64,000 nt of DNA from Escherichia coli (lineage in GTDB: Bacteria > Pseudomonadota > Gammaproteobacteria > Enterobacterales > Enterobacteriaceae). A program made the position numbers. Positions 28,301-31,300 of the stretch are shown here, one piece after another; within the stretch, counting starts at the first letter, position 1; every line of letters starts with the position of its first letter. Location: NCBI RefSeq assembly GCF_024223415.1, contig NZ_CP100500.1. One strand, given 5' to 3'.

Positions 28301-31300
28301 CAACCATGAAGAATAGGCAGAATTTTATCAGGATGCTTAATGAGTAAAATTATTATATTTACAATGTTTGAAAAGAAATTTTTGCTATTTTTTATTTCAT
28401 CGATTTTTTCCGCTGAAATGTTTACTAAGTTTTCATTTCCGGAAATGAAAAGCGATTTGCCATGGGGGCTTTTTTTAAATTGTTCTTCTGTTTTAGAAAA
28501 GACATCATCCTTAAAAGGTAGCAACTTAGAACCAGTAATAAACGGTTTTAATAAATTCGAATTTGAAATTGTCATATCTTTGCTCCACTACAGGGTTATC
28601 CTGGAGCATGTTGTACATAACATCATGGGCAAAGAATACCAAAAATCGCTCATATCGATCGGGACAAATATTTAACAAATTCAGCCCTGACATTGAGCAG
28701 CTTTTTTGCGCTGCGTAGTGTCAGGGCTGGTGACTAACGACGTAACAAATAAAACAGATGCTTTAGTTCATCCACACCGTAGCCGAAATGGCAGGCAAAG
28801 CCAGAATCCCGTCGGTCAGTTGCCCATGGCCTTCTTTGCGTTGCCATTGCACGACATTAAGAAACGGTGACGCGGGTAGCACCACTTCACAGGCTTCGCC
28901 ACGGTTAATTGCCACCAGTACACGCTGCTGATTCAGCACGCGGACAAATACCACCACGTTATCTTCCGCATACAGCACCTGACAGCCGCCACGACGCAGC
29001 GCCTGACTTTTCTTACGCAGCACAATCATTCGCTGGTACAGCGCGAATAACGCCGTATCCTGCTTTTCCACCTGCCAGGGAAACGGTTTACGGCAAAACG
29101 GATCGTTTTTACCATCCAGTCCCACTTCATCACCGTAATAAATGCACGGTACACCAGGCCAGGTGAACAGCCAGACCACCGCCAGGGGCAGGCGCGCAAC
29201 ATCCCGACCGAGCAGCGTTTTAAATCGCGCAGTATCGTGGCTGTCGAGCTGATTAAACATACGTAATTGCTGTTGATGAGAAAGCCCTGCGCGGTAATTA
29301 TCCATCCAGGCCATACAGGTTTGAGCGTCAATTTGCTGCGGATCGTAAGAGATGTCGGTATTGGCAAGAAATCCCCACAACGGGAATGTGAAGCCGCGAT
29401 AGTTCATGGCGGCATCTTCCACATCGGCCTGTAACCATTGCCGTGCATCGCCAAAATGCTCTCCAACTATATACGCTTCTGGCTGGGTTTCTTTCGCCGC
29501 TTCGGTGATCCCGGCAACGTGCTGCAAATTATTGCGCGCCCCACCCGCCTCCCCCAGCATATGCACCACATCCAGCCGCCAGCCGTCCATATTCCACGGC
29601 GCTTTCAGCCAGTGGCGGACAATACTGTCTTCCCCGCGATAAATTTCATTCACCAGACTTTCCGACTGATAATCCAGCTTCGGCAAGCTGGCATAGCCCA
29701 GCCAGTCGAGCGCCGTGCCATCGTCACTAAACGAGTACCAGTCGCGCCAGGGCGATTCGGGGTTGTGACAAGCCCCCCCGTGCCACGATTGTGCCTGTCA
29801 AACCAGGCATGGGAATCGCCACTGTGGTTAAACACGCCGTCCAACACCAGCCGCATTCCCAGCTGCTGCGTATTGTGTCGCAAACGCAGCAACGCCCCAT
29901 CACCGCCAAACTGCGGATCGACATGGCGATAATCCTCGGTATCGTATTTATGTACGCTGGGAGCTTTAAACACCGGATTGAGATACAGCGCCGTCACGCC
30001 AAGTTTTTTCAGATACGGCAGTTTTTCGCTTATCCCGTCCAGATCGCCGCCATAGAACGTTGATCCGCCCGCCTGCGCCGTGACCGGTTCATCCCAGTAA
30101 CGCAATATGATCTCTTGTCCGGCTGCGTGATGGTAATAGACATGATCCTGTTCAGCTTCACGAGGAAGGCTACGGGCGAAACGATCAGGGAAGATCTGAT
30201 AAAAAATCTGATCCGCAGCCCATTGTGGGCCGATATCCGGTACATCGATGGCAAACTGCTCCAGTCGTGCTGGCGGCATTCGGCTGAAGCCCTGCGGTGT
30301 AAACCAACGCTGGCGATCGTGCCATAGCAATTTGAAACTATAACGCCGCCGAGGTTGTCCGCTGGAGAGATCGATCGCCGCCCGCCATGCGGTGACACCA
30401 GGCTGCGGCTGACTGCGCTGCTTATGCATCGGTACTGACATTTCTTCGTTATCGTGTTCTGTACGCAGCATAATGCGCTGCGGTGGGTCTTCGCCCGTCA
30501 GCCACAGTGTAATGAGCAGTTGATCTTTGCTTTGTTTAACAAATGGGGGCACCGGCAGGTGCCATGCATTTAACATCATAATTCCCCTGTGATGAAAATC
30601 TGATCACCTTGCCATAGCCTAATGCAGGATCACTCATCATCTGAAGGATATTTGGGGGAGGAGGACGGGGGCGGATAACTTTCGGAATAGCCGGATCAGG
30701 ATTTCCTCCTGAACCGGCTTACAGAACGCAAGGATTACTGGTTTTCAGCCAGCTGACGATCGTGGCGGCGTTTAAACATCCAGCCAATCAACAGCACAAC
30801 AATCCACGCGAAACCGACATACAGCGAGATACGCGTATCCGGGTGATAACCAATCAACCCGATAATAAAGAGCAGGAAAATCAGCCCGCCGATGGTCGTT
30901 GCTACCCCACCCGGCACTTTAAATTTCAGCGCCTTAACTTCTTCTGGCGGCAAACGGCGACGGAAGGCAATTTGCGACAGCAGGATCATAATCCACACCC
31001 ATACCGTGGCGAAGGTTGCCAGCGAAGCGATCACCAGGAAGACGTTTTCCGGCATGATGTAGTTCAGATACACCGCAAACAATAGCGCGGTAGTCATCAC
31101 CAGCACCGTAACCCACGGAATACCGCGACGCGACGTTTTGCTGAAAATTTTCGGTGCGCTGCCCTGCTCTGCCATACCGTGGAGCATACGGCCTACGCCA
31201 AATACGTCACTGTTAATTGCCGACAGCGAAGCAGTCAGCACAACAAAGTTAAGAATGCTGGCGGCAAAGGTAATGCCCATATGCTGGAACGTCAGCACGA

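What the first reader, a model, noticed from the sequence alone, without database searches (positions are those of the whole stretch)
28682..28729. Long-spacer perfect inverted repeat at the boundary of the acpH-malZ islet
An 11-bp perfect inverted repeat (CAGCCCTGACA ... TGTCAGGGCTG) with a 26-bp spacer lies between malZ and the 489-aa accessory gene. The spacer is too long for a typical intrinsic terminator and no T-tail follows on either strand. It could be a protein-binding palindrome or a scar marking the insertion boundary of the islet.
Basis: seen in the sequence. Interest (0 to 1): 0.2.

Follow-up and report, generated by a model that had tools for sequence, protein, structure and literature searches.

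The report
Stem-loop after malZ, carried by islet
The inverted repeat is real but is the base of an ordinary, very stable 48-nt stem-loop that came in with a small foreign gene inserted between malZ and acpH in about a fifth of E. coli strains; it most likely marks the end of the malZ transcript and is not a new kind of element.

Summary
The 11-bp perfect inverted repeat is at the stated coordinates. The "26-bp spacer" is itself self-complementary: it holds a 5-bp inner stem, GCAGC/GCTGC, around an 8-nt loop. The real object is a 48-nt compound hairpin, the most stable 48-nt fold in the whole 64-kb window.

It starts 33 nt after the malZ stop and ends 106 nt before the ATG of a 489-aa ORFan, all on the - strand. 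On that strand a moderately U-rich tail follows (AAUUUGUUAAAUAUUUG).

In 4295 of 5426 complete E. coli genomes the malZ and acpH stop codons are 4 bp apart with no hairpin. In 1126 genomes a 1683-bp AT-rich islet, ORFan plus hairpin, sits there. The hairpin stretch is single-copy, always chromosomal, and found in no islet-free genome.

It is not a dispersed repeat, MITE or Rfam family. No matching repeat lies at the other islet boundary, and no recombinase is present.

Stems are almost invariant across 8 haplotypes, but there is no compensatory change, so selection on the structure is unproven.

Best reading: an islet-borne terminator-like or 3'-end-protecting stem-loop between malZ and the ORFan. 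Ordinary; low interest.

The parts
28682..28729 (-). 48-nt compound hairpin, the finding. Outer 11-bp stem 28682-28692 / 28719-28729. 4x4 internal loop 28693-28696 / 28715-28718. Inner 5-bp stem 28697-28701 / 28710-28714. 8-nt loop 28702-28709.
   Evidence: It is the most stable 48-nt fold in the window. 15 of 16 pairs are invariant in 8 haplotypes.
28665..28681 (-). Tail after the hairpin on the malZ-sense strand: AAUUUGUUAAAUAUUUG. It is a weak, interrupted U-tract.
   Evidence: 5 U in the first 8 nt. The decaying tail sum is 2.48, borderline for a terminator. The simple terminator scan did not list it.
28730..28762 (-). 33-nt spacer between the malZ stop codon and the hairpin; the right end of the islet.
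   Evidence: It is absent from K-12 and CFT073. Its possible pairing with the last malZ codons is not significant (z -2.2).
27080..28762 (.). The islet: 1683 bp, 30-44% GC. It replaces the 10 bp 'ttataaaacg' of islet-free strains.
   Evidence: Present in 1126 of 5426 complete E. coli genomes, one copy each, always at this locus.
27106..28575 (-). 489-aa ORFan (ECs_0454 in Sakai, 481 aa there), preceded by GGAG 7 nt before the ATG. It is the only gene of the islet.
   Evidence: No family, no solved relative, no homologue outside Escherichia/Shigella.
28763..30579 (-). malZ, whose transcript would run into the hairpin. In this window it is split by a 1-bp deletion in a G-run.
26504..27085 (+). 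acpH, convergent with the ORFan (20 bp between the two stops). Its last two codons are CTC TGA here, against TTA TAA in islet-free strains.

Best explanation
The repeat is the base of a 48-nt RNA stem-loop that belongs to a 1.68-kb foreign islet, not to the E. coli backbone. The islet was inserted into the 4-bp gap between the convergent malZ and acpH genes.

Proposed mechanism (inferred): on the malZ-sense (-) transcript the stem-loop forms 33 nt after the malZ stop codon and acts as a transcript-end element. RNA polymerase either terminates at it, inefficiently because of the weak U-rich tail, or terminates further downstream. In the second case 3'-5' exonucleases trim back to the hairpin, which then protects the malZ mRNA 3' end. 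Either way it partly insulates the downstream ORFan from MalT-driven malZ read-through.

Shown here: the structure, its exceptional stability, its position and orientation, its strict linkage to the islet, and its single-copy status.

Inferred: that it forms in vivo and ends or protects transcripts.
For: - Structure and stability.
- Position: 33 nt after the malZ stop, on the same strand, followed by AAUUUGUUAAAUAUUUG.
- Islet-free strains have no intergenic space at all, so the islet needs its own transcript boundary.
- No sigma-70-like promoter was called on the - strand between hairpin and ORFan. Read-through from malZ is therefore a realistic source of ORFan transcription, and the hairpin is the only structured element in its way.
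- All variation seen within the hairpin in 36 copies falls in the loop or internal loop, except one stem change in one contig.
- The same 11-bp stem occurs by coincidence in Prevotellaceae and Oscillospiraceae MAGs as the stem of textbook T-tailed terminators.
- Stable stem-loops without a U-tract are a documented class of E. coli mRNA 3' ends: Rho-dependent transcripts trimmed back to a protective hairpin (PMC6061677).
Against: - The U-tract is weak. It starts with AA and has no run longer than 3. The simple terminator scan did not call it, though that scan has no provision for internal loops or mismatches in the stem.
- The tail sum of 2.48 is just under the usual 2.5 cut-off. That cut-off is recalled from the TransTermHP scheme, not checked here.
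- There is no C-over-G enrichment downstream, as a rut site would show (C/G 0.7-1.0).
- There is no compensatory substitution. One haplotype (L026) breaks a stem pair uncompensated.
- The intergenic region is no more conserved than its surroundings.
- The hairpin is more stable on the + strand (-35.2 against -29.9), which is not what selection on the - strand RNA alone predicts.
- No transcript-end data could be found.
Confidence: 0.5

Rival explanations
1. Passenger structure with no present function. The hairpin is a leftover of the donor DNA, for instance the terminator of whatever preceded the ORFan in the unknown donor. It persists only because the islet is young and little diverged.
For: - No covariation; 15 of 16 pairs simply never vary.
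- Variability around the hairpin (8-10% of columns) equals that of neighbouring sequence.
- One natural allele breaks a stem pair.
- One strain (USDA5905) has lost the hairpin together with parts of both flanking genes.
- The ORFan itself evolves under relaxed constraint, with dN/dS 0.4-1.7.
Against: - Of 7 variable sites in the 57-nt stretch, only 1 lies in the 32 stem positions. The binomial P is about 0.03, or about 0.12 if the loop homopolymer indels are set aside (computed by hand).
- It is the most stable hairpin in 64 kb, placed just where a transcript boundary is needed.
Confidence: 0.3
2. The functional strand is the + strand, or the hairpin acts as double-stranded RNA. Examples: the end or processing site of an RNA antisense to the ORFan 5' region, or an RNase III site (about 20 bp with an internal loop) that separates malZ and ORFan RNAs.
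For: - The + strand fold is better: 19 pairs in a helix of about 20 bp, including two G.U pairs, dG -35.2, z -8.4.
- The overall length of about two helical turns with an internal loop resembles phage T7-type RNase III sites (from general knowledge, not tested).
Against: - No T-tail follows on the + strand.
- No + strand promoter is called near it; the only one called is at 28080-28109, about 570 bp upstream.
- The + strand ORF that ends 7 nt before the hairpin (28340-28675) is broken by a stop codon in Sakai and others.
- No Rfam family matches.
Confidence: 0.07
3. A DNA-level element: a scar or recognition site of the event that inserted the islet (hairpin-directed or site-specific recombination), or an operator bound by a regulator.
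For: - It lies only 33 bp from the right islet boundary.
- It can extrude as single-stranded DNA hairpins of -16.6 to -17.1 kcal/mol.
- An 8-bp direct repeat TAACAAAT flanks it (28673-28680 and 28743-28750).
- In HS-02 only the malZ-proximal arm is shared.
Against: - No counterpart lies at the left boundary.
- No integrase or transposase domain is found in the only islet gene.
- There is one copy per genome and none elsewhere in 5426 genomes, in phages or in true plasmids.
- The locus is biallelic, not a multi-cargo hotspot.
- The TAACAAAT repeat does not abut the inverted repeat on the right side, and it varies between alleles.
- The HS-02 replacement is 1.1 kb of poly-T and looks like an assembly artefact.
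- The half-sites are 37 bp apart centre to centre.
Confidence: 0.08

Closest known systems
Intrinsic (Rho-independent) transcription terminator
   Same: A G+C-rich stem-loop shortly after a stop codon, in the sense orientation. An A/U-only stretch (bar one G) follows the stem.
   Different: - The tail is interrupted (AAUUUGUU) instead of a run of U.
- The hairpin is long (48 nt) with a 4x4 internal loop.
- It was not called by the simple scan.
[quoted passage not shown]
   Same: A stable stem-loop without a proper U-tract immediately downstream of a gene, expected to block PNPase and RNase II.
   Different: - No C-over-G (rut-like) bias downstream.
- Rho dependence is untested.
- The downstream sequence is 65-70% A+T foreign DNA.
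REP/BIME and other dispersed intergenic palindromes of enterobacteria
   Same: An imperfect palindrome between convergent or tandem genes that can stabilise upstream mRNA.
   Different: Single copy per genome, with no sequence relatives anywhere in 5426 E. coli genomes and no Rfam hit.

Membership tests
Intrinsic terminator | Stable G+C-rich stem-loop | tested here: met
   dG -29.9 kcal/mol on the malZ-sense strand, z -7.6. Rank 1 of 42,636 windows.
Intrinsic terminator | U-rich tract of about 7-9 nt directly after the stem | tested here: inconclusive
   AAUUUGUU has 5 U of 8 and no run longer than 3. The tail sum of 2.48 is borderline. The site was not listed by the scan.
Intrinsic terminator | Lies downstream of a gene on its sense strand | tested here: met
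   33 nt after the malZ stop, on the same strand.
Intrinsic terminator | RNA 3' ends map to the tail in vivo or in vitro | not testable with these tools
   The supplements of the Sakai Term-seq paper are not held. The locus tag appears in no paper text.
Rho-dependent 3'-end protective stem-loop | [quoted passage not shown] | tested here: inconclusive
   The stem-loop criterion is met. The tail is intermediate in U content.
Rho-dependent 3'-end protective stem-loop | C-over-G enrichment (rut) downstream | tested here: not met
   C/G is 1.00, 0.94, 0.73 and 1.00 in 80-nt windows downstream.
REP/BIME/ERIC-type dispersed repeat | Many related copies per genome | tested here: not met
   One place per genome, and only in islet-bearing genomes. 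Only the two arms of this repeat match in the 64-kb window.
MITE / IS remnant | Terminal inverted repeats abutted by a target-site duplication; multiple copies | tested here: not met
   The TAACAAAT direct repeat does not abut the right arm (13 nt lie between) and varies among alleles. The element is single-copy.
Site-specific recombination site (attC-like, hairpin-recognising) | A cognate recombinase nearby and the same site flanking different cargo | tested here: not met
   - The only islet gene has no recognisable domain.
- The locus has just two alleles.
- The arm pattern recurs nowhere related in 100,044 species genomes or in viral contigs.
Any Rfam RNA family | Match to a curated covariance model | tested here: not met
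   No match up to E = 10 in 26300-29300, both strands.

The most novel reading that the evidence does not exclude
The hairpin and the ORFan form a minimal mobile or self-contained module. Either the hairpin is the DNA structure through which the islet was captured precisely into the 4-bp gap between two convergent stop codons, by an unknown hairpin-recognising activity. Or it is a dedicated RNA gate that couples expression of an E. coli-restricted ORFan to maltodextrin-induced malZ read-through.
Probability: 0.04. Interest if true: 0.55.

Novelty: new member of a known kind. Interest (0 to 1): 0.1.

Why it matters
It matters little beyond annotation. It shows how a foreign single-gene islet wedged between two convergent genes only 4 bp apart carries its own stem-loop, which restores a transcript boundary after malZ. 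It also corrects the impression that the repeat is an unusual long-spacer palindrome.

The more curious object is the neighbouring 489-aa ORFan. It is present in 21% of complete E. coli genomes, has no detectable relative outside Escherichia/Shigella, and has no predictable fold.

Tried and rejected
- **Rfam scan:** nothing.
- **Promoter/terminator scan:** does not call the hairpin, and no - strand promoter lies before the ORFan.
- **Dispersed-repeat idea:** rejected; single copy.
- **Backbone-terminator idea:** rejected; the hairpin is absent from K-12, CFT073 and 4295 genomes.
- **Plasmid or phage origin:**
  - The two plasmid hits are mislabelled 4.9-Mb chromosomes.
  - No phage match and no viral contig match.
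- **Species-wide search with ORFan peptides:** no relatives.
- **Species-wide search for the arm pattern:** four unrelated MAG hits. Three are ordinary T-tailed terminators and one appears to lie inside coding sequence (read from the sequence only). All are coincidence, not homology.
- **ORFan function:**
  - Pfam, NCBIfam, PADLOC, PHROGs and PDB give nothing above noise.
  - The 1.84-billion-representative search finds only itself and fragments.
  - AlphaFold gives pLDDT 36, too poor for a fold search.
- **Covariation test:** uninformative.
- **Antisense ORF 28340-28675 ending at the hairpin:** rejected because it is interrupted in Sakai.
- **TAACAAAT direct repeat as a target-site duplication:** rejected.
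- **HS-02 'half hairpin' as a recombination breakpoint:** set aside, because the replacing 1.1 kb is poly-T junk.
- **Second hairpin pairing the malZ 3' end with the 33-nt spacer:** not significant (z -2.2).
- **Literature:** no paper mentions ECs0454, and the Z0503/Z0504 hits were unrelated uses of those strings. No usable 3'-end data were held.

Full report
**Observation**

The window is E. coli. The 241 bp around the finding are 100% identical to O157:H7 strain TR01. CAGCCCTGACA at 28682-28692 and TGTCAGGGCTG at 28719-28729 are a perfect 11-bp inverted repeat.

They are not. GCAGC (28697-28701) pairs with GCTGC (28710-28714) around an 8-nt loop, TTTTTTGC. The repeat finder therefore reports 20-nt arms, 85% complementary, only 8 nt apart.

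Folding results:

| Strand | RNA fold | dG (kcal/mol) | z against shuffles |
|---|---|---|---|
| - (malZ sense) | 11 bp, 4x4 internal loop, 5 bp, 8-nt loop | -29.9 | -7.6 |
| + | 14 bp (two G.U pairs), 1x1 mismatch, 5 bp | -35.2 | -8.4 |

A bare 11-bp inverted repeat with a spacer of 40 nt or less is expected 0.77 times in a shuffled 64-kb window, so alone it would not be significant. The complete hairpin is another matter. It is the single most stable of 42,636 sliding 48-nt folds over both strands of the window.

**Context**

All relevant genes are on the - strand. malZ ends at 28763-28765 and the hairpin follows 33 nt later. Then come 106 nt, a GGAG Shine-Dalgarno sequence, and the ATG (28575) of a 489-aa ORF (27106-28575). 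acpH (26504-27085, + strand) converges on that ORF.

On the - strand the hairpin is followed by AAUUUGUUAAAUAUUUG. This tail is composed only of A and U apart from one G. It has 5 U in the first 8 nt but no run longer than three. On the + strand no T-tail follows.

**Is it backbone or islet?**

- In K-12 and CFT073 the malZ and acpH stop codons are separated by 4 bp.
- A 300-bp probe across that compact junction is contiguous in 4295 of 5426 complete E. coli genomes.
- The 1683 bp at window 27080-28762 are present in 1126 genomes, once each and always at this locus on the chromosome.
- BLAST of K-12 against the window breaks exactly at 27079 and 28763.
- The hairpin stretch was searched at low stringency. 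It was found in those same 1126 genomes, plus one odd assembly, and in no islet-free genome.
- The islet is 30-44% G+C against 50-58% in the flanks.

The hairpin came in with the islet. The locus has only these two alleles, so it is not a multi-cargo hotspot.

**What the islet carries**

The islet carries one gene. Its product has no Pfam, NCBIfam, PADLOC, PHROG or PDB relative. In 1.84 billion cluster representatives it matches only one full-length cluster, at 91% identity, and fragments of itself. All named relatives are Escherichia or Shigella.

It was not found in any of 100,044 species-representative genomes by peptide scan. It was not found in phages, true plasmids or viral contigs.

AlphaFold gives pLDDT 36. 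dN/dS between alleles is 0.4-1.7. Nothing suggests a recombinase.

**Is the hairpin a repeat family, a mobile-element end, or a known RNA?**

No.
- There is one copy per genome.
- No Rfam match appears up to E = 10.
- No counterpart lies at the left islet boundary.
- The 8-bp direct repeat TAACAAAT on either side does not abut the right arm and varies among alleles.
- The exact arm pattern recurs in four unrelated MAGs. In three of them it forms an ordinary terminator followed by T-runs, with unrelated loops and flanks. That is coincidence, but it shows the stem is a perfectly good terminator stem.

**Conservation**

Thirty-six copies were compared: the window, 7 complete genomes and 28 metagenome contigs. 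The contigs were retrieved with anchors outside the hairpin. They give 8 haplotypes.

Differences fall in these places:
- the loop (T-run of 5-7, with or without G);
- the internal loop (28696 A/T, 28715 G/A);
- the bases next to the stem (28680, 28730).

Only one contig (L026) has a stem change (28720 G to T), and it is uncompensated. Fifteen of 16 pairs never vary and there is no compensatory change.

One of 7 variable sites lies in stems, where about 4 would be expected. This is suggestive (P about 0.03, or about 0.12 without the homopolymer indels; my arithmetic) but not proof. The region as a whole is no more conserved than its neighbours.

**Mechanism**

The best-supported reading is a transcript-end element for malZ, supplied by the islet. 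It would be either a weak intrinsic terminator or a stem-loop that stops 3'-5' exonucleases after termination further downstream. The second is a class documented for E. coli Rho-dependent transcripts (PMC6061677).

No sigma-70-like promoter is called between the hairpin and the ORFan. Read-through from malZ may therefore contribute to ORFan expression, with the hairpin limiting it.

Weak points:
- the tail is borderline;
- no C-over-G bias lies downstream;
- the + strand fold is the more stable one;
- no transcript-end data could be found.

The main rival is that the hairpin is a functionless passenger from the donor. Roles on the + strand, as an RNase III site, or at the DNA level are possible but have no positive support.

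**Verdict**

This is a real and very stable but ordinary stem-loop. It was wrongly characterised as a long-spacer palindrome without a tail. It is a new member of a known kind and of low interest.

Noticed in passing
window 29773-29780 (- strand, inside malZ): malZ has a 1-bp deletion in a poly-G run: G7 here, G8 in O157:H7 TR01, GGGTGGTG in K-12. This splits it into two ORFs (29650-30579 and 28763-29686). It is either a pseudogene in this strain or a homopolymer sequencing error.
   Followed up: partly
window 27106-28575 (- strand): The 489-aa islet gene is a true ORFan. It has no family, fold or homologue outside Escherichia/Shigella among 1.84 billion representatives, yet it is intact in about 21% of complete E. 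coli genomes. dN/dS is 0.4-1.7.
   Followed up: partly
window 27656-27726: A 12-bp tandem repeat lies inside the ORFan and encodes 4-residue units (AEKT/AKKT-like). Copy-number differences probably account for the 473/481/485/489/493-aa length variants among strains; the most variable alignment columns fall at 27670-27719.
   Followed up: partly
window 27080-27085 (end of acpH): The last two acpH codons are CTC TGA in islet-bearing strains and TTA TAA in islet-free strains. Both read Leu-stop although 3 of 6 nt differ. This suggests the islet allele arrived with its own acpH end by homologous exchange rather than by simple insertion.
   Followed up: no
L004 1940-3000 (E. coli HS-02): In place of the islet this assembly has about 1.1 kb of poly-T/AT low-complexity sequence with no ORF. 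It retains only the malZ-proximal half of the hairpin. It looks like an assembly or consensus artefact.
   Followed up: partly
L014 3027-3362 (E. coli O55:H7 USDA5905): A deletion joins the 3' remnant of the ORFan to a C-terminally truncated malZ. It removes the hairpin, and both genes are annotated as pseudogenes.
   Followed up: no
window 5020-5067: A perfect 18-bp inverted repeat (TATCCCTTAATTGTGCAT / ATGCACAATTAAGGGATA), extended to about 20 pairs in the predicted fold (dG -26.3), sits about 45 bp upstream of an ATG at 5110 (product starts [13 protein letters not shown], panE-like from memory). Its nature was not examined.
   Followed up: no
window 28340-28675 (+ strand): A 111-aa ORF antisense to the ORFan 5' end stops 7 nt before the hairpin. 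It is interrupted by a stop codon in Sakai and in another contig, so it is a shadow ORF, not a gene.
   Followed up: yes
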